Shown: positions 11,085-16,783 of the stretch, piece after piece
Layout of the letters: every line of letters begins with the position of its first letter
How positions within the stretch are numbered: the stretch's first letter is position 1
Origin: a virus
Lineage: Duplodnaviria; Heunggongvirae; Uroviricota; Caudoviricetes
Strand: one strand, 5' to 3'
DNA: 32,443 nucleotides
Virus record (IMG/VR): IMGVR_UViG_2541047794_000003
The notes under the pieces: generated by a model
Database searches by the model: none
What the model was told of the DNA's origin: nothing
What the model saw: only the letters and a program-made list of their open reading frames with translations
Program-made: the position numbers and the translations under genes

Positions 11085-11771
11085 ATGACCCCAATAAAAA
11101 TATTTATGACTATTGCTGATTTCAAACGGCCTAAATTGGAGCTCCCAAACGGGGCAAACAAACTACTACTGCACTCTTGCTGTGCTCCATGTTCCGGTGA
11201 AGTGATGGAGGCGCTTCAGGCCTCGGGAATCGACTACACCATCTTTTTCTACAACCCGAACATTCATCCTCAGAAAGAGTATTTAATTCGTAAGGATGAA
11301 AATATTCGCTTTGCTGAACAACACGGCGTGCCGTTTATCGATGCTGATTACGACACCGACAACTGGTTTGAACGTGCCAAAGGAATGGAATGGGAGCCTG
11401 AGAGGGGGATCCGTTGTACCATGTGTTTTGACATGCGTTTTGAGCGGACAGCGTTGTACGCTGCTGAAAATGGTTTCAGTGTGATCAGCAGTTCACTGGG
11501 CATTTCACGCTGGAAAAATATGCAGCAGGTTAACGAGTGTGGGCGGCGAGCTGTTGCGCATTATCCGGGTATGGTGTACTGGGATTATAACTGGCGCAAG
11601 CAGGGCGGCTCGTCCCGTATGATTGAAATCAGCAAGCGCGAAAAATTCTATCAGCAGGAATATTGTGGCTGTGTGTATTCTCTGCGCGATACCAATCTAC
11701 ACCGCAAATCTCAGGGACGCCCTCTTATCAAAATTGGCCAACTCCACTACGGAAAAGAAGAGAAGGAGTGA
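11085..11771 (+). CDS. queH: DUF208-family protein, likely epoxyqueuosine reductase QueH-like
   Basis: 228-aa ORF with [11 protein letters not shown] motif and additional conserved Cys (CTMC, CGC) typical of DUF208/QueH. Confidence 0.55.
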
Positions 11772-11879
11772 TTTTATGGATCACCTTTCTGATTGATTTC
11801 ATATTGGCGAGGTGACGTGAGTTAAGTAGAATGGCTGCGGGTGCTTGAGGCTATCTGTCTCAGGCATGAACACTGAAAG

Positions 11880-11960
11880 GCAGATAGAGAAAAGCCCCAG
11901 TTAACATTTCGCGTCCTGCAAGACGCTTAACATTAATCTGAGGCCCAATCTATGTCTCAC
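11880..11960 (-). ncRNA. Candidate Sok-like antisense RNA of the hok locus (approximate bounds)
   Basis: Minus-strand region complementary to hok leader/mok start; contains GGGGCU hairpin element analogous to Sok 3' end; candidate promoter TTGCCT-N17-TAACCT on minus strand. Confidence 0.35.
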
Positions 11961-12008
11961 AAATGTAGGTTAGCCTCTTACGTGCCGAAAGGCAAGGGGA
12001 AGCAGGCT

Positions 12009-12164
12009 ATGAAGCAGCAAAAGGCGATGTTAATCGCCCTGATCGTCATCTGTTTAACCGTCATAGTGACGGCACTGGTAACGAGGAAAGACCTCTGCGA
12101 GGTACGACTCCGAACCGGCCAGACGGAGGTCGCTGTCTTCACAGCTTACGAACCTGAGGAGTAA
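12009..12164 (+). CDS. hok: Hok/Gef-family type I toxin (small membrane peptide)
   Basis: 51-aa ORF MKQQKAMLIALIVICLTVIVTALVTRKDLCEVRLRTGQTEVAVFTAYEPEE matching Hok family pattern; leader has tac/ucb-like elements; in-frame upstream ATG at 11952 (mok-like). Confidence 0.85.
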   Translation: MKQQKAMLIALIVICLTVIVTALVTRKDLCEVRLRTGQTEVAVFTAYEPEE

Positions 12165-12214
12165 GAGACCTGGCGGGGGAGAAATCCCTCGCCACCTCTG
12201 ATGTGTCAGGCATC

Positions 12215-12256
12215 CTCAACGCACCCGCACTTAACCCGGTTCGGCGGGTTTTGTTT
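12215..12256 (+). terminator. Terminator / fold-back element at hok mRNA 3' end
   Basis: Hairpin CCCGC...GCGGG followed by TTTTGTTTTTTT. Confidence 0.5.
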
Positions 12257-12331
12257 TTTTCTGGCATTCTGGTTTACAATTCGCACGTCAGCCTGAACAC
12301 CTGACACCTGCTGCGCCAGCAGAGAAAACAG

Positions 12332-12604
12332 ATGGCGCACAAAACCAAATTTCACAATTCTGATACCGACCTTGCCATCCGGCATGGGCGGCGTTCACAC
12401 GCATTTAAAACCGACTGGTACCAACACCCACCATGTACTGAAGAACAGGCCGAATGGCTAATTCATAACTACCGCAGACGCGGATACGAGATTAAGAAAG
12501 CCCTCAGCCTCGATTATCGTCACTGGATAATCTCCGTCAGGCTTCCTTACTCTGAACGCCCACCGCGTCCGTCCCGCACATTCCAGCAACGCATCTGGAG
12601 GTAA
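12332..12604 (+). CDS. Hypothetical 90-aa protein, translationally coupled to downstream DUF968 gene
   Basis: ATG at 12332; stop 12602-12604 within GGAGGTAACGTG so that its last codons carry the SD of the next gene. Confidence 0.5.
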   Translation: MAHKTKFHNSDTDLAIRHGRRSHAFKTDWYQHPPCTEEQAEWLIHNYRRRGYEIKKALSLDYRHWIISVRLPYSERPPRPSRTFQQRIWR

Positions 12605-12605
12605 C

Positions 12606-13661
12606 GTGCGGGTATTACTTCGACCTGTTCTGGTACCGGAACTCGGGCTGGTGATCGTTAAGCCGGGCCGTGAATCCATGCCGGTATTCCACAATACCCG
12701 GGTACTGGTGGAGCCGGAACCGAAAAGCATGCGTAATCTGCCGTCCGGGGTCGTTCCTGCCGTTCGCCAGCCGCTGGCGGAGGATAAATCATTACTGCCA
12801 TTTTTCAGCGACGAACGAGTGATTCGTGCTGCTGGTGGCGCTGGCGCATTGTCTGACTGGTTACTGCGCCATGTTAAATCCTGCCAGTGGCCACACGGCG
12901 ATTATCACCACAGTGAAACCGTCATTCACCGTTATGGTACCGGCGCAATGGTGTTGTGCTGGCACTGCGACAACCAGCTGCGCGACCAGACCTCCGAATC
13001 ACTCGGGCAACTTGCTCACCAAAACCTGTTTGCATGGATGATTGACGTCATACGCCATGCAATGAATGGCTCGCAGGAACGGGAATTATCGCTGGCTGAA
13101 TTATCCTGGTGGGCGGTCCGCAATCAGGTGGCGGACGCGCTACCGGAAGCGGTATTACGTCGTTCGCTGGGGTTGCGTGCGGAAAAAATCCGCTCAATGT
13201 ACCGTGAAAGCGACATCGTACCGGGAGAGCAGACCGCCACCAGCATACTGAAGCAGCGCACAAAAAATCTTGCGCCGCTGCCTCACGCCCACCAGCAAAA
13301 CCCGCCACAGGAAAAGACGGTGGTCAGCATTGCCGTTGATCCGGAGTCACCGGCTCAGTATCTCCAGCGCCAGAAATCACAACGGGAAGAGATGCCTGTA
13401 TACACGCGTTGGGTAAAAACGCAGAAATGCATGACGTGTGGCAATCAGGCAGATGATCCGCATCACATCATTGGTCATGGACTGGGAGGGATGGGAACAA
13501 AGGCTGATGATTTGTTTGTTATTCCGCTGTGCCGTAAATGCCATAGCGAACTACACGCCGGGGTAGAAGATTTTGAAGAAAAACACGGCAGCCAGCTGTT
13601 GTTGCTGATTCGTTTTTTAATGCACGCGAGAAATTCGGGTGTTTTGAAGTGGAAAGCATAA
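12606..13661 (+). CDS. DUF968-type protein with HNH-like zinc-binding motifs (YdfU-like)
   Basis: 351 aa, GTG start with GGAGG SD; C-terminal CMTCG...DPHHIIGH...CRKCHSELH HNH-like motif and an upstream Cys/His cluster. Confidence 0.65.
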   Translation: MRVLLRPVLVPELGLVIVKPGRESMPVFHNTRVLVEPEPKSMRNLPSGVVPAVRQPLAEDKSLLPFFSDERVIRAAGGAGALSDWLLRHVKSCQWPHGDYHHSETVIHRYGTGAMVLCWHCDNQLRDQTSESLGQLAHQNLFAWMIDVIRHAMNGSQERELSLAELSWWAVRNQVADALPEAVLRRSLGLRAEKIRSMYRESDIVPGEQTATSILKQRTKNLAPLPHAHQQNPPQEKTVVSIAVDPESPAQYLQRQKSQREEMPVYTRWVKTQKCMTCGNQADDPHHIIGHGLGGMGTKADDLFVIPLCRKCHSELHAGVEDFEEKHGSQLLLLIRFLMHARNSGVLKWKA

Positions 13662-14042
13662 ATGACTGAACGCATAGAATTTGTTTTGCCTTACCCGCCA
13701 ACGGTGAACACTTACTGGCGACGCCGTGGCAGCACATATTTTGTATCAAAAGCCGGGGAGCGTTATCGCCGGGCAGTGGCGCTTATTGTTCGCCAGCAGC
13801 GGCTGAAATTAAGCCTGTCCGGAAGGTTGGCAATAAAAATTATTGCAGAACCACCGGATAAGCGCCGCCGTGACCCGGACAATATTCTGAAAGCGCCGCT
13901 GGATGCGCTGACGCATGCGGGGTTGCTAATGGACGATGAGCAGTTTGATGAAATCAATATCGTTCGTGGTCAGCCAGTATCTGGTGGACGTCTGGGGGTG
14001 AAGATTTACCCCATAATGCTTGAAGGGCAGGTCAAAAAATGA
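13662..14042 (+). CDS. rusA: Holliday junction resolvase RusA
   Basis: 126 aa; LPYPPTVNTYWRRRG ... PDKRRRDPDNILKAPLDALTHAGLLMDDEQ ... GGRL matches RusA catalytic pattern. Confidence 0.85.
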   Translation: MTERIEFVLPYPPTVNTYWRRRGSTYFVSKAGERYRRAVALIVRQQRLKLSLSGRLAIKIIAEPPDKRRRDPDNILKAPLDALTHAGLLMDDEQFDEINIVRGQPVSGGRLGVKIYPIMLEGQVKK

Positions 14043-14860
14043 AACTGGAAGATTTACCGAAATACTACTCCCCAAAATCCCCCGGCCTGACCGATGCGTC
14101 CGCCTCGACATCAAAAGATGCGCTGAGTATCACTGATGTGATGGCCGCGCAGGGCATGACACAAAATCGGGCTGAGATGGGTTTTTCTGCGTTCCTTGGG
14201 AAAATGGGCATTAGTATGAATGACAGAGAGCGGGCAACAGAATTGCTGACAGAATATGCACTCAGTCGGTGTGATCGCGTGGCGGCGTTAAGAAAACTCC
14301 CGGCAGAAATAAAACCGGTAGTGATGCGCATTATGGCTTCGTACGCTTTTGAGGATTATGCCCGCAGCGCAGCGAGTAAAAAGCAGTGCCCTTGTTGCTA
14401 TGGGGAAAAATTTATTGAAAGCGTAGTTTTTACAAACAAGGTCCAGTATCCGGATGGTAAGCCGCCGGTATGGGCAAAGTGTACGAAAGGTGTGTATCCG
14501 TCTTACTGGGAAGAATGGAAAAAAGTCAGGGAGGTGGTAAAAGTTGCCTGTCCGGAGTGTGGCGGAAAGGGTGAGGTTTCCACCGCCTGTAAGGATTGCC
14601 GTGGGCGTGGTGTCGCCATTCATCGTGAAGAGTCGGTAAAACGTGGTATGCCTGTTATCAGAGACTGCCAGCGTTGTGGTGGTCGTGGCTGTGAAAGACT
14701 ACCATCAACGGAGGCATTTAATGCCATACGCAAAGTGACGAGTGCTATCACGCTTGATACGTGGAAAAAATCAGTGAAACGCTTTTACGATACGTTGGTG
14801 GTTCGGTTTGACATTGAAGAGGCATGGGCGGAGCGGCAGTTAAAGAGGGTAACGCGATAG
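14039..14860 (+). CDS. Q: Late-gene antiterminator Q (long Q-type with multiple CxxC zinc motifs)
   Basis: 273 aa with four CxxC pairs; ATGA overlap with rusA; immediately followed by a PR'-like promoter whose -10/initial transcribed region resembles lambda PR'. Confidence 0.65.
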   Translation: MKLEDLPKYYSPKSPGLTDASASTSKDALSITDVMAAQGMTQNRAEMGFSAFLGKMGISMNDRERATELLTEYALSRCDRVAALRKLPAEIKPVVMRIMASYAFEDYARSAASKKQCPCCYGEKFIESVVFTNKVQYPDGKPPVWAKCTKGVYPSYWEEWKKVREVVKVACPECGGKGEVSTACKDCRGRGVAIHREESVKRGMPVIRDCQRCGGRGCERLPSTEAFNAIRKVTSAITLDTWKKSVKRFYDTLVVRFDIEEAWAERQLKRVTR

Positions 14861-14940: not shown

Positions 14941-14966
14941 ACCCCGCCGCCTGGCGGGTTTTTTAT
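14941..14966 (+). terminator. tR'-like intrinsic terminator
   Basis: CCCGCC gcct GGCGGG hairpin followed by TTTTTT about 50 nt downstream of PR' -10. Confidence 0.55.
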
Positions 14967-15434: not shown

Positions 15435-16484
15435 ATGCTTAATACTGTAAAAATATCCAGTTGTGAGTTAATCAACGCCGACTGCCTGGAATTTATCCGG
15501 TCGTTACCCGAAAATTCTGTTGACCTGATAGTCACGGACCCGCCGTACTTTAAAGTGAAGCCTGAGGGCTGGGATAACCAGTGGAAGGGCGACGATGATT
15601 ACCTGAAGTGGCTGGACCAGTGTCTGGCGCAGTTCTGGCGGGTGCTGAAACCTGCCGGAAGTCTTTACCTGTTCTGTGGTCATCGCCTGGCATCTGATAT
15701 CGAAATCATGATGCGTGAACGCTTCAGTGTGCTGAACCATATTATCTGGGCGAAGCCGTCCGGACGCTGGAACGGATGCAACAAGGAAAGCCTGCGGGCG
15801 TATTTCCCCGCCACAGAGCGCATTCTGTTCGCGGAACATTATCAGGGGCCGTATCGTCCGAAAGATGCCGGGTATGCGGTGAAGGGCAGTGCACTGAAAC
15901 AGCATGTGATGGCCCCGCTGATTTCTTACTTTCGTGATGCGCGCGCGGCCCTGGGGATAACGGCAAAACAGATTGCAGATGCCACAGGAAAGAAAAACAT
16001 GGTGTCGCACTGGTTCAGTGCCAGTCAGTGGCAGCTACCGAACGAAAGCGATTATCTGAAATTACAGTCGCTGTTTGCCCGGGTGGCAGAAGAGAAACAT
16101 CAGCGCGGTGAACTGGAAAAGCCCCACCACCAGCTGGTGGATACGTATACGTCACTGAACCGGCAGTATGTGGAGCTGCAGAGTGAATATAAGCATCTGC
16201 GGCGGTATTTTGGTGTGACGGCGCAGGTGCCGTACACGGATGTGTGGACACATAAACCGGTGCAGTTCTATCCCGGGAAACATCCGTGCGAAAAACCGGC
16301 AGAAATGCTGCAGCAGATAATCAGCGCAAGTAGCCGTCCTGGTGATCTGGTTGCGGATTTTTTCATGGGGTCGGGTTCAACGGTAAAAGCGGCGATGGCA
16401 CTGGGGCGTCGTGCGATTGGTGTTGAGCTGGAGACCGGACGTTTTGAGCAGACAGTCAGGGAAGTTCAGGATTTAATCGTTTGA
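15435..16484 (+). CDS. Orphan DNA methyltransferase, probably N6-adenine (beta-class motif order)
   Basis: 349 aa; TDPPY motif IV near N-terminus and FFMGSGST motif I near C-terminus; no adjacent restriction gene. Confidence 0.8.
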   Translation: MLNTVKISSCELINADCLEFIRSLPENSVDLIVTDPPYFKVKPEGWDNQWKGDDDYLKWLDQCLAQFWRVLKPAGSLYLFCGHRLASDIEIMMRERFSVLNHIIWAKPSGRWNGCNKESLRAYFPATERILFAEHYQGPYRPKDAGYAVKGSALKQHVMAPLISYFRDARAALGITAKQIADATGKKNMVSHWFSASQWQLPNESDYLKLQSLFARVAEEKHQRGELEKPHHQLVDTYTSLNRQYVELQSEYKHLRRYFGVTAQVPYTDVWTHKPVQFYPGKHPCEKPAEMLQQIISASSRPGDLVADFFMGSGSTVKAAMALGRRAIGVELETGRFEQTVREVQDLIV

Positions 16485-16533: not shown

Positions 16534-16609
16534 GGCCCTTTAGCTCAGTGGTGAGAGCGAGCGACTCATAATCGCCAGGTCGCTGGTTCAAATCCAGCAA
16601 GGGCCACCA
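16534..16609 (+). tRNA. ileZ: tRNA-Ile (anticodon CAT, lysidine type; ileZ-like)
   Basis: 76-nt cloverleaf GGCCCTT...AAGGGCC-A-CCA; anticodon loop CTCATAA; near-identical architecture to E. coli tRNA-Ile2. Confidence 0.8.
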
Positions 16610-16616
16610 TCACATA

Positions 16617-16693
16617 CCGCCATTAGCTCATCAGGAAAGAGCGCCAGCCTTCGAAGCTGGTTGCGCGGAGTTCGGGTCCCCGAAGGCGGTCCA
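16617..16693 (+). tRNA. tRNA-Arg (anticodon TCG as read), atypical
   Basis: Cloverleaf with anticodon stem CCAGC/GCTGG and loop CTTCGAA; one mismatch in acceptor stem (A6:A67) and one in T-stem, T-loop TTCGGGT; ends CCA. Confidence 0.55.
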
Positions 16694-16706
16694 TTATCTG
16701 TATCCT

Positions 16707-16783
16707 GCGTTGTTAGCTCAGCCGGACAGAGCAATTGCCTTCTAAGCAATCGGTCACTGGTTCGAATCCAGTACAACGCGCCA
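16707..16783 (+). tRNA. argO: tRNA-Arg (anticodon TCT, reads AGA)
   Basis: Perfect acceptor stem GCGTTGT/ACAACGC, anticodon loop CTTCTAA, T-loop TTCGAAT, discriminator G, CCA. Confidence 0.8.

What the first reader, a model, noticed from the sequence alone, without database searches (positions are those of the whole stretch)
12332..13661. Translationally coupled pair: 90-aa protein plus DUF968 protein with two Cys/His clusters
The stop of the 90-aa gene lies inside GGAGGTAACGTG, so its last codons form the SD for the GTG start of the 351-aa DUF968 protein. That protein has an HNH-like C-terminal motif (C-x2-C ... HH ... C-x2-C-H) and a second upstream Cys/His cluster. The pair lies between a toxin locus and RusA and may act as a nuclease or defence-type two-gene unit rather than as replication or packaging genes.
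Basis: partly seen in the sequence, partly recalled or inferred. Interest (0 to 1): 0.5.

Follow-up and report, generated by a model that had tools for sequence, protein, structure and literature searches.

The report
Prophage HNH nuclease with small partner
This is the ordinary, very widespread YdfU-type (DUF968) HNH nuclease gene of E. coli lambda-like prophages, preceded by a small uncharacterised gene whose last codons form its ribosome-binding site; it belongs to the phage's recombination gene block just upstream of the late-gene activator, and nothing marks it as a defence system.

Summary
A 90-aa ORF (12332-12604) ends in TGG-AGG-TAA, so GGAGG lies 4 nt before the GTG (12606) of a 351-aa DUF968 protein, which has two Cys/His clusters.

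- **Identity.** The large protein is the orthologue of E. coli K-12 YdfU (79% identity). DNA similar to this block is found in 4784 of 5426 complete E. coli genomes.
- **C-terminal cluster.** It is a His-Me (HNH) finger, already classified in the literature. Its motif is conserved in 23 of 27 diverse homologues and is lost only in the P1 PdcB-like clade.
- **N-terminal cluster.** It is a conserved putative zinc site (C93, H/C101, C118, C/H121), not a second HNH.
- **Small protein.** It belongs to a Pfam-less, Enterobacterales-only family (PHROG 1212) under purifying selection.
- **Is the pair exclusive?** No.
  - The same small gene, with the same stop/SD/start junction, precedes NinG, YbcO (DUF1364), DUF968, RusA or a DnaQ-like exonuclease.
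  - Near-identical small proteins sit before different nucleases.
  - Roughly 88% of DUF968-bearing phage records lack the small gene.
- **Wider coupling.** The tight junctions continue through RusA and Q.

The best reading is a Rap/NinG-like nin-region recombination nuclease. There is no evidence for defence. Low novelty.

The parts
12332..12604 (+). Gene for a 90-aa small protein. It has a 66-aa conserved core (residues 25-90, PHROG 1212, no Pfam family) plus a poorly constrained, predicted-disordered N-terminal extension of about 24 residues.
   Evidence: ORF. PHROG 1212 at 2.2e-36; no Pfam or NCBIfam match. RefSeq annotates it as a hypothetical protein, WP_001329966.1. dN/dS 0.19 for the core and 0.68 for the extension. 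AF2: beta-alpha-beta-beta core at pLDDT about 89, residues 1-24 below 50.
12597..12608 (+). Junction GGAGG-TAA-C-GTG. The Shine-Dalgarno sequence is made by the Trp89-Arg90 codons of the small gene, followed by its stop codon, one base, and the GTG start of the DUF968 gene.
   Evidence: Read directly. The same junction occurs in 73 of 75 IMG/VR relatives, with two GGAGA variants, and in K-12 Qin. Family-wide variants are TGGGGGTGAnnATG and TGGGAGTAAcaATG.
12606..13661 (+). Gene for the 351-aa DUF968 protein, the orthologue of E. coli K-12 YdfU (Qin prophage).
   Evidence: 79% identity to YdfU over 348 aa. Pfam DUF968 at 1.1e-63. PHROG 96 'HNH endonuclease' at 2.1e-166 over the full length. RefSeq WP_021524061.1, 'DUF968 domain-containing protein'.
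12882..12968 (+). N-terminal Cys/His cluster (C93 ... H101 ... C118-W-H-C121-D-N). It is a putative structural zinc site in an N-terminal domain (residues 1-160) that is specific to this protein family.
   Evidence: In 27 diverse sequences: C93 27/27, Q94 27/27, position 101 H16/C10, C118 27/27, W119 26/27, position 121 H17/C10, D122 25/27. No profile similarity to the C-terminal HNH region. The N-domain family has only 177 representative clusters; every full-length member checked carries Pfam DUF968 downstream.
13428..13556 (+). C-terminal His-Me (HNH) finger core: C275-x2-C278, H286-H287, GGMGTK loop, D302, C309-x2-C312-H313, H317.
   Evidence: Pfam HNHc_6 at 2.6e-06, just above the gathering score. 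Conservation: C275 27/27, C278 24/27, H286 23/27, H287 23/27, D302 27/27, C309 24/27, H313 23/27, H317 23/27. Local BLASTP to a YbcO (PDB 3g27 family) protein, 43% over 30 aa, E=4e-05. Published as His-Me finger group 7 (PMC5714182).
13662..14042 (+). RusA Holliday-junction resolvase gene. It starts directly after the TAA of the DUF968 gene.
   Evidence: Pfam RusA at 2.1e-15. Junction GCATAAATG. RusA is the next gene in 74 of 75 evaluable relatives.
14039..14860 (+). Q-type late antiterminator gene. It overlaps the RusA stop by 4 nt (ATGA) and is the last gene of the packed chain.
   Evidence: Pfam Antiterm at 8.5e-51. Coordinates. Terminator-like site at 14943-14958.
11839..12250 (+). Upstream boundary of the block: the hokD/sok type I toxin-antitoxin locus and its intrinsic-terminator-like hairpin (12233-12250).
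   Evidence: Pfam HOK_GEF at 1.6e-22. Rfam sok, 120.5 bits. RefSeq hokD annotation. Terminator-like site.

Best explanation
Identity and setting. The 351-aa protein is the YdfU-type DUF968 nuclease of a lambdoid prophage. It sits in the 'nin' block of the early operon: small gene, DUF968, RusA, then the Q antiterminator.

The nuclease (inferred). Its C-terminal His-Me (HNH) finger, held by a Cys/His zinc site, most likely cuts DNA. H286 would be the general base, and H313/H317 would hold the metal. The family-specific N-terminal domain, with its own conserved C/H zinc site, probably supplies DNA or branch recognition. Because it occupies the genomic slot that Rap/NinG or YbcO occupies in sister phages, its likely job is to nick or trim branched recombination or replication intermediates. 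It would act alongside RusA while the phage replicates and before packaging.

The small gene. The 90-aa gene upstream is a separate, conserved nin-region gene. Its final Trp-Arg codons and stop codon form the ribosome-binding site and restart point for the nuclease gene. Ribosomes finishing it would therefore initiate on the nuclease, then RusA, then Q.

Shown here: gene identities, motif conservation, synteny, junction conservation, and purifying selection.
Inferred, not shown: nuclease activity, substrate, zinc binding, real translational coupling, and any physical contact between the two proteins.
For: - Identity: 79% identical to YdfU; DUF968, HNHc_6 and PHROG 96 matches.
- Catalytic and zinc residues are conserved in 23-27 of 27 homologues down to 25% identity.
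- There is a local match to the YbcO/3g27 family, and the literature places DUF968 with DUF1364 as His-Me finger group 7, with RusA and Q as neighbours (PMC5714182).
- Slot equivalence: the same small gene is followed by NinG in Gifsy-2 and GF-2, by YbcO then RusA then Q in mEp237, phiES15 and Klebsiella ST974, and by DUF968 then Q in Klebsiella ST846phi9.1.
- Across 204 loci the gene after the small gene is NinG in 97, DUF968 in 83 and YbcO in 15.
- The packed chain is conserved: RusA follows in 74 of 75 loci, and the small-gene/DUF968 junction is kept in 75 of 76.
- Literature (PMC4118853) reports the Pfam DUF968 domain fused to Erf, Rad52 and RusA recombination proteins.
- The best Foldseek matches of the (poor) model are all HNH nucleases: McrA, Cas5-HNH and IscB.
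Against: - No experiment on any YdfU-family protein turned up in the searches made (K-12 YdfU appears in a paper on the E. coli 'y-ome').
- The structure model is poor (mean pLDDT 45), and the fold matches are not significant (best E=0.05).
- There is no Pfam match to NinG, and profile comparisons to NinG and YbcO are weak (P about 0.002-0.003). 'Works like Rap' therefore rests on position, not homology.
- RusA is already present, so a second junction nuclease looks partly redundant.
- The P1 PdcB-like clade lacks the catalytic histidines, so nuclease activity is not universal in the family.
Confidence: 0.55

Rival explanations
1. Defence or exclusion module. The small protein and the HNH nuclease would form a two-gene anti-phage or toxin/antidote-like unit carried as a prophage moron next to hok/sok. 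The small protein would restrain or direct the nuclease.
For: - It lies directly after accessory-type genes, QueH and hokD/sok.
- The arrangement of a small upstream gene tightly joined to a nuclease gene resembles toxin-antitoxin layouts.
- It is retained in the cryptic Qin prophage of K-12.
Against: - PADLOC gives no match for either protein or for RusA.
- The genes are part of the phage's own early operon, packed against RusA and Q, and are separated from hok by a terminator-like hairpin.
- The small gene is not specific to the nuclease: a cluster at 95% identity or more precedes either YbcO or NinG.
- About 88% of DUF968-bearing phage records lack the small gene.
- The slot is filled by the recombination nuclease NinG/Rap in sister phages.
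Confidence: 0.08
2. Regulatory, non-catalytic zinc protein. The protein would bind DNA through its two zinc sites and help control late-gene activation, rather than cutting DNA.
For: - It sits directly upstream of the late activator in very different phages: Q in lambdoids and Lpa in P1.
- The P1 PdcB clade keeps the four cysteines but has lost H286, H287, H313 and H317.
- Some database records label relatives as transcriptional regulators or Q (PMC5714182).
Against: - In 23 of 27 diverse members the full catalytic set is conserved, which is hard to explain without catalysis.
- Its position next to Q is simply the end of the early operon.
- The 'Q' labels are most likely annotation carry-over from the neighbouring gene.
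Confidence: 0.1
3. Selfish homing-type HNH endonuclease. It would maintain itself by cutting phage genomes that lack it, which could explain why different nucleases alternate in one slot.
For: - Three different His-Me finger families alternate at one junction, and near-identical small genes lie upstream of different nucleases.
- An annotated HNH homing endonuclease lies next to the small gene in Enterobacter phage vB_Ecl_MII_001.
Against: - The protein has stable synteny, and the gene block is found in most E. coli genomes.
- None of the annotated contexts examined places the gene in an intron or intein.
- The family is His-Me group 7, not one of the classical homing families.
- Mosaic module exchange is the norm in lambdoid nin regions (general knowledge).
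Confidence: 0.05
4. The small protein as a dedicated subunit. It would be a stoichiometric accessory (a specificity, activation or inhibition factor) for nin-region nucleases in general, and the coupling would ensure it is made first.
For: - In 197 of 204 loci the gene right after it is a nuclease: 195 are His-Me finger nucleases (NinG, DUF968 or YbcO), plus one RusA and one DnaQ-like exonuclease.
- The junction type is conserved across all partner classes.
- The C-terminal tail PRPSR..Q..W is conserved.
Against: - The partners are three families with little sequence similarity, plus RusA and a DnaQ-type exonuclease, so a common binding surface is unlikely.
- In Erwinia phage Eho59 a cytosine methyltransferase follows. 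In PY54 the exonuclease is upstream. In the Enterobacter phage several genes lie in between.
- Most DUF968 genes lack the small gene.
- The loci sampled are redundant and were chosen by homology to the small gene.
Confidence: 0.15

Closest known systems
E. coli K-12 YdfU (b1560, Qin prophage), Pfam DUF968 (PF06147), His-Me finger 'group 7' of Jablonska et al. 2017
   Same: 79% identity over the full length. It has the same N-domain plus DUF968 architecture, and the same upstream small ORF with the same GGAGGTAACGTG junction. The neighbours RusA and Q were already noted in the literature.
   Different: K-12 Qin has rem inserted upstream and no RusA between ydfU and the Q gene ydfT. In YdfU position 312 is His rather than Cys. 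The K-12 copy of the small ORF is not annotated.
YbcO / DUF1364 (PDB 3g27), the small HNH protein of the DLP12 / phage 82 type nin region
   Same: It has the same catalytic core pattern, H-x-G-x-G-x-K-x-DD ... C-x2-C-H (43% over 30 aa). It occupies the same slot, after the same small gene and before RusA and Q.
   Different: YbcO is 96 aa and consists of the finger only. It lacks the 260-residue N-terminal part, including the second zinc cluster. The profile-profile match is weak (P=0.003), and a profile of DUF968 sequences did not retrieve 3g27.
Lambda Rap / NinG (PF05766), branch-specific recombination endonuclease
   Same: It is a His-Me finger nuclease in the nin region upstream of Q. In Gifsy-2, GF-2 and many IMG/VR prophages it follows the same small gene with the same stop/SD/start junction.
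   Different: There is no Pfam NinG match and only a weak profile similarity (P=0.002). The size and domain make-up differ. Rap's activity is experimentally known (cited), whereas no assay of a DUF968 protein was found.
Phage P1 PdcB
   Same: Full-length homologue (27% identity), with the same N-terminal cluster and the four C-terminal cysteines.
   Different: It lacks H286, H287, H313, H317 and the GGMGTK loop. It lies after phd-doc-pdcA and before lpa, not in a nin region. PdcA is not a member of the small-protein family.

Membership tests
Pfam DUF968 (PF06147) | Profile match above the curated gathering score | tested here: met
   214.7 bits against a cut-off of 27.8, residues 160-343.
His-Me finger / HNH nuclease superfamily | Catalytic His at the end of the first strand, plus a metal-binding His/Asn on the helix, conserved across relatives | tested here: met
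   H286 23/27, H287 23/27, D302 27/27, H313 23/27, H317 23/27. The four exceptions are the P1 PdcB-like clade. HNHc_6 scores 27.6 bits against a cut-off of 26.6.
His-Me finger / HNH nuclease superfamily | Beta-beta-alpha-metal fold | tested here: inconclusive
   The AF2 model has mean pLDDT 45; only residues 264-345 are moderately confident. The top four Foldseek PDB matches are HNH nucleases, but with E=0.05-0.7. The fold is established for the related YbcO, PDB 3g27.
His-Me finger / HNH nuclease superfamily | Metal-dependent nuclease activity | not testable with these tools
   Needs a biochemical assay. No published assay of a YdfU-family protein was found.
NinG / Rap (PF05766) | Sequence membership in the NinG family | tested here: not met
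   No Pfam NinG match at E<=0.01. hhalign probability 12.8%, P=0.002, over 36 columns. Only the genomic slot is shared.
DUF1364 / YbcO (PF07102) | Single-domain protein of about 96 aa matching the DUF1364 profile | tested here: not met
   No Pfam DUF1364 match. The protein is 351 aa with an extra N-domain. There is only a local 30-aa similarity.
Known anti-phage defence systems (PADLOC-DB 2.0) | A match of any component to a defence-system profile | tested here: not met
   No families at E<=0.1 for the small protein, the DUF968 protein or RusA.
Obligate two-gene unit (toxin-antitoxin-like pair) | The two genes co-occur wherever either is found, and co-vary | tested here: not met
   They co-occur in 75 of 76 close relatives. 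However, only about 21 of 175 DUF968 phage records and about 21 of 65 small-gene records hold both. One small-protein cluster at 95% identity or more precedes both YbcO and NinG.
Translationally coupled gene pair | Stop and start within a few bases, with the SD inside the upstream coding sequence | tested here: met
   GGAGG-TAA-C-GTG, conserved in relatives and in other partner classes. Whether downstream translation really depends on upstream translation cannot be tested here.
PHROG 1212 (small protein) | Profile match over the whole profile | tested here: met
   2.2e-36, profile positions 1-66 of 66, residues 25-90.

The most novel reading that the evidence does not exclude
The PHROG-1212 small protein could be a shared accessory subunit for the whole set of nin-region nucleases (NinG/Rap, YbcO, YdfU, perhaps RusA and the N15 DnaQ-like exonuclease). 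It might be a loader, an activator or a transient inhibitor. Its conserved basic C-terminal tail (PRPSR..Q..W) would dock on the nuclease or on a common host target. The stop/SD/start junction would exist so that the small protein is made first and in step with the nuclease. That would define a previously unrecognised regulatory layer of phage recombination nucleases.
Probability: 0.1. Interest if true: 0.5.

Novelty: already known. Interest (0 to 1): 0.2.

Why it matters
It matters little as a discovery. The protein is the YdfU orthologue, and the gene block is found in most E. coli genomes. It has already been placed in the His-Me finger superfamily, with RusA and Q noted as neighbours.

Two modest points are worth keeping:
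- YdfU-family proteins remain without an assayed function, even though they are among the commonest prophage nuclease genes in E. coli. The slot equivalence with Rap/NinG and YbcO gives a concrete, testable substrate hypothesis.
- The small upstream gene is a Pfam-less family that is unannotated in K-12 and in N15. It precedes several different nuclease families with the same stop/SD/start junction, which had not been pointed out in the papers found here.

Tried and rejected
- **Rem homology.** I expected the 90-aa protein to be the K-12 Rem protein, because the gene order is hokD-rem-ydfU. BLASTP shows no similarity. Rem is an extra insertion, and the true K-12 homologue is an unannotated ORF.
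- **P1 PdcA.** PdcA (66 aa, upstream of PdcB) is not a member of the small-protein family.
- **Internal duplication.** The two Cys/His clusters are not a duplicated HNH: hhalign gives probability 0.5% or less.
- **Locus searches that yielded little.**
  - The search for related loci with the 6-sequence alignment failed because no stretch was conserved enough.
  - The genome-contig scan with a 4-sequence alignment returned only 6 loci, because the pattern was too narrow.
  - IMG/VR scans returned mostly redundant close relatives.
- **PDB sequence searches.** Family profiles gave nothing significant.
- **Structure of the DUF968 protein.** Only homologues at 83% identity or more were admissible, so the model is poor. 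The last fold-search job was therefore not spent on it.
- **Long 'fusion' representatives of the N-domain.** Proteins of about 400 to 807 aa turned out to be chimeras with tail or portal proteins, most likely assembly artefacts.
- **Literature.** The search for YbcO was swamped by papers on the superconductor of the same abbreviation.
Full report
**1. What is in the sequence**

- The 90-aa ORF runs from the ATG at 12332 to the TAA at 12602-12604.
- Its last two sense codons, TGG-AGG, give GGAGG at 12597-12601.
- After the stop comes one base, then the GTG at 12606, which opens a 351-aa ORF ending at 13661.
- This GTG is the real start: the N-terminal residues align from position 1 with homologues of only 25-50% identity.
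- The next junctions are just as tight. The TAA of the 351-aa gene is followed directly by the ATG of RusA (13662). RusA overlaps the Q antiterminator gene by ATGA at 14039.
- Upstream lies a hokD/sok locus (Pfam HOK_GEF; Rfam sok at 11839-12014, 120.5 bits), with a terminator-like hairpin at 12233-12250.

**2. Where the window comes from**

- The window is an E. coli lambdoid prophage. The 2.2-kb stretch 11900-14100 has 100%-identical copies in several complete E. coli genomes. Similar DNA occurs in 4784 of 5426 genomes, and 3022 of them cover at least 80% of it.
- RefSeq annotates, in order: hokD, hypothetical protein, DUF968 domain-containing protein, RusA, antitermination protein.
- The 351-aa protein is 79% identical to K-12 YdfU of the Qin prophage.
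- The K-12 gene rem, which lies between hokD and ydfU, is unrelated to the 90-aa protein.
- The true K-12 counterpart is an unannotated 92-codon ORF between rem and ydfU that ends in the same GGAGGTAACGTG.

**3. The large protein**

- Family matches: Pfam DUF968 (1.1e-63, residues 160-343) and HNHc_6 just above its threshold. PHROG 96 'HNH endonuclease' covers the full length. NCBIfam and PADLOC give nothing.
- Published placement: DUF968 and DUF1364 (YbcO, PDB 3g27) together form His-Me finger 'group 7'. That paper names YdfU, notes RusA and Q as neighbours, and proposes a role in recombination (PMC5714182). Another paper notes DUF968-type HNH domains fused to Orf, Erf, Rad52 and RusA proteins (PMC4118853). 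I found no functional study of YdfU.
- C-terminal motif, in 27 diverse full-length homologues (25-96% identity):
  - C275 27/27, C278 24/27
  - H286 and H287 23/27 each
  - D302 27/27, C309 24/27
  - position 312 Cys or His in 24/27
  - H313 and H317 23/27 each
  - The four exceptions form the P1 PdcB-like clade. It keeps the four cysteines but has lost the histidines and the GGMGTK loop.
- Link to the solved YbcO family: a local BLASTP match to a YbcO-family protein (43% over 30 residues, E=4e-05). That protein is itself a close match to PDB 3g27.
- N-terminal cluster:
  - It is real and conserved as C93, position 101 (His 16, Cys 10), C118 and position 121 (His 17, Cys 10), with Q94, W119, D122 and N140 nearby.
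  - This is the pattern of a four-ligand zinc site.
  - It shows no profile similarity to the C-terminal finger, to YbcO or to NinG, so I do not read it as a second HNH.
- N-terminal 160 residues: a narrow family with 177 representative clusters among 1.84 billion proteins. The full-length members I checked all carry Pfam DUF968 downstream. The apparent long fusions are chimeras with tail or portal proteins.
- Structure prediction was limited to near-identical homologues and gave a poor model (pLDDT 45). Its best Foldseek matches are HNH nucleases, but they are not significant.

**4. The small protein**

- It matches PHROG 1212 (unknown function) over residues 25-90 and has no Pfam or NCBIfam family.
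- A profile search found about 520 clusters at 90% identity. All that carry an organism name are Enterobacterales.
- Most members are 66-69 aa. The Qin-type copies carry an extra, fast-evolving N-terminal extension of about 24 residues.
- Among 59 distinct alleles, dN/dS is about 0.22: 0.19 for the core and 0.68 for the extension. The core is therefore a real protein.
- AF2 gives a confident beta-alpha-beta-beta core (residues 25-72, pLDDT about 89), a disordered N-terminus and a low-confidence basic tail.
- A weak, sub-threshold Glyoxalase/VOC signal in 10 of 35 members is only a lead.

**5. Is it a pair?**

- Close relatives: in the YdfU clade (83% identity or more), 75 of 76 evaluable IMG/VR loci have the small gene with the same one-base gap. 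RusA follows in 74 of 75.
- The small-gene family is not tied to DUF968. It lies directly before:
  - NinG in Gifsy-2 and Edwardsiella phage GF-2
  - YbcO-type HNH, then RusA, then Q in mEp237, phiES15 and a Klebsiella phage
  - a 47%-identical DUF968 in another Klebsiella phage
  - a DnaQ-like exonuclease in N15, where the small ORF is unannotated
  - a cytosine methyltransferase in an Erwinia phage
  - In PY54 the exonuclease is upstream instead.
- Over 204 loci, the gene that follows is NinG in 97, DUF968 in 83, YbcO in 15, and RusA and the DnaQ-like exonuclease in 1 each. The sample is redundant.
- The junction is of one type throughout. The terminal Trp-Gly, Trp-Arg or Trp-Glu codons plus the stop codon read TGGGGGTGA, TGGAGGTAA or TGGGAGTAA, and the next start lies 1-3 bases on.
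- One cluster of small proteins at 95% identity or more precedes YbcO in 6 loci and NinG in 17. Partners are therefore exchanged right at the junction, without co-variation.
- The converse also holds:
  - The phage collection has 175 records with a DUF968 homologue and 65 with the small gene. Only about 21 have both.
  - SfV, a Providencia phage, Vibrio phage H20 and P1 have no small gene within 2.5 kb.
- The second refutation test (never co-occurring) is not met. Equally, the pair is not an obligate unit.

**6. Most likely function**

- The slot just upstream of the Q antiterminator (downstream of the early-region genes) holds NinG/Rap, YbcO or DUF968 in different phages, after the same small gene and often before RusA.
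- Rap is a known branch-specific endonuclease (cited).
- I therefore rate as most likely (about 0.55) that the YdfU-type protein is a metal-dependent DNA endonuclease acting on branched recombination or replication intermediates. Its N-terminal zinc domain would provide substrate recognition.
- I also think the junction makes its translation follow that of the small gene.
- Activity, substrate, zinc binding and coupling are all inferences.

**7. Rival explanations**

- Defence or toxin-antidote reading: PADLOC gives no match, the genes are embedded in the early operon, and the small gene's partner varies.
- Non-catalytic regulatory role: this is suggested by the position next to Q or Lpa and by the histidine-less P1 clade. 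It does not explain the conserved catalytic set elsewhere.
- Homing-endonuclease behaviour, and a general 'nuclease accessory' role for the small protein, remain possible at low probability.

**8. Verdict**

The defence-type two-gene-unit reading is not supported.
- The gene is an orthologue of a known, if unassayed, family, and its classification and neighbourhood are already published. Novelty is therefore low.
- The one modestly new point is that the Pfam-less small gene supplies the ribosome-binding site for several different nin-region nuclease genes.

Noticed in passing
L002 4307-4585 (minus strand), equal to NC_000913.3 about 1644306-1644584: E. coli K-12 MG1655 has an intact 92-codon homologue of the small gene between rem and ydfU, ending in the same GGAGGTAACGTG junction. 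It is not annotated in the K-12 record. Rem itself is unrelated to it.
   Followed up: yes
L005 2992-3219 (phage N15, NC_001901.1 about 35930-36157): N15 carries an unannotated member of the small-protein family (ending ...KPSKTFQQRIWE) directly upstream of gene 41, a DnaQ-like exonuclease. An older partial record calls it 'orf QD1'.
   Followed up: partly
window 11085-11771 (+): A full-length epoxyqueuosine reductase QueH homologue (Pfam 1.1e-65) sits as an accessory gene in the prophage early region, just before hok/sok. A queuosine-pathway enzyme is an unusual phage passenger.
   Followed up: no
window 12206-12385 (-): RefSeq annotates a 59-aa 'hypothetical protein' (WP_001112740.1) antisense to the hok terminator region and to the start of the 90-aa gene. 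It looks like a spurious call, but this was not tested.
   Followed up: no
L125 2405-3448 (phage P1 pdcB) and P0377, P0404, P0447: A P1 PdcB-like clade of the DUF968 family keeps the N-terminal cluster and all four C-terminal cysteines. It has lost H286, H287, H313, H317 and the GGMGTK loop, so it is probably not a nuclease. In P1 it lies directly upstream of the late-promoter activator lpa.
   Followed up: partly
window 14039-14860 (+): The Q-type antiterminator carries a DnaJ-like CXXCXGXG zinc-finger segment (Pfam DnaJ_CXXCXGXG at 7e-06, below the gathering score) in addition to the Antiterm domain.
   Followed up: no
window 15435-16484 (+) and 16534-16783 (+): An intact 349-aa DNA methyltransferase-like ORF lies here; the identical region in strain AR_0017 is annotated as frameshifted. 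Three tRNA genes follow (CAT, TCG and TCT anticodons). ARAGORN calls the first Met, while RefSeq calls it Ile.
   Followed up: no
P0324-P0327, P0341 (representative proteins): Several 'long' database proteins begin with the DUF968 N-domain and then continue into tail-fibre, tip-attachment (J) or portal domains. They are almost certainly chimeric assemblies of prophage repeats, not real fusions.
   Followed up: yes
P0241 (Salmonella enterica, 96 aa): A small-protein variant with an internal tandem duplication of about 28 residues (HHHDCTTEQADTLISDYQKRG... occurs twice).
   Followed up: no
L208 1789-3044 (Erwinia phage vB_EhrS_59): Here the small gene overlaps the start of a Dcm-type cytosine methyltransferase gene instead of a nuclease gene. 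NinF and NinG follow further downstream.
   Followed up: no
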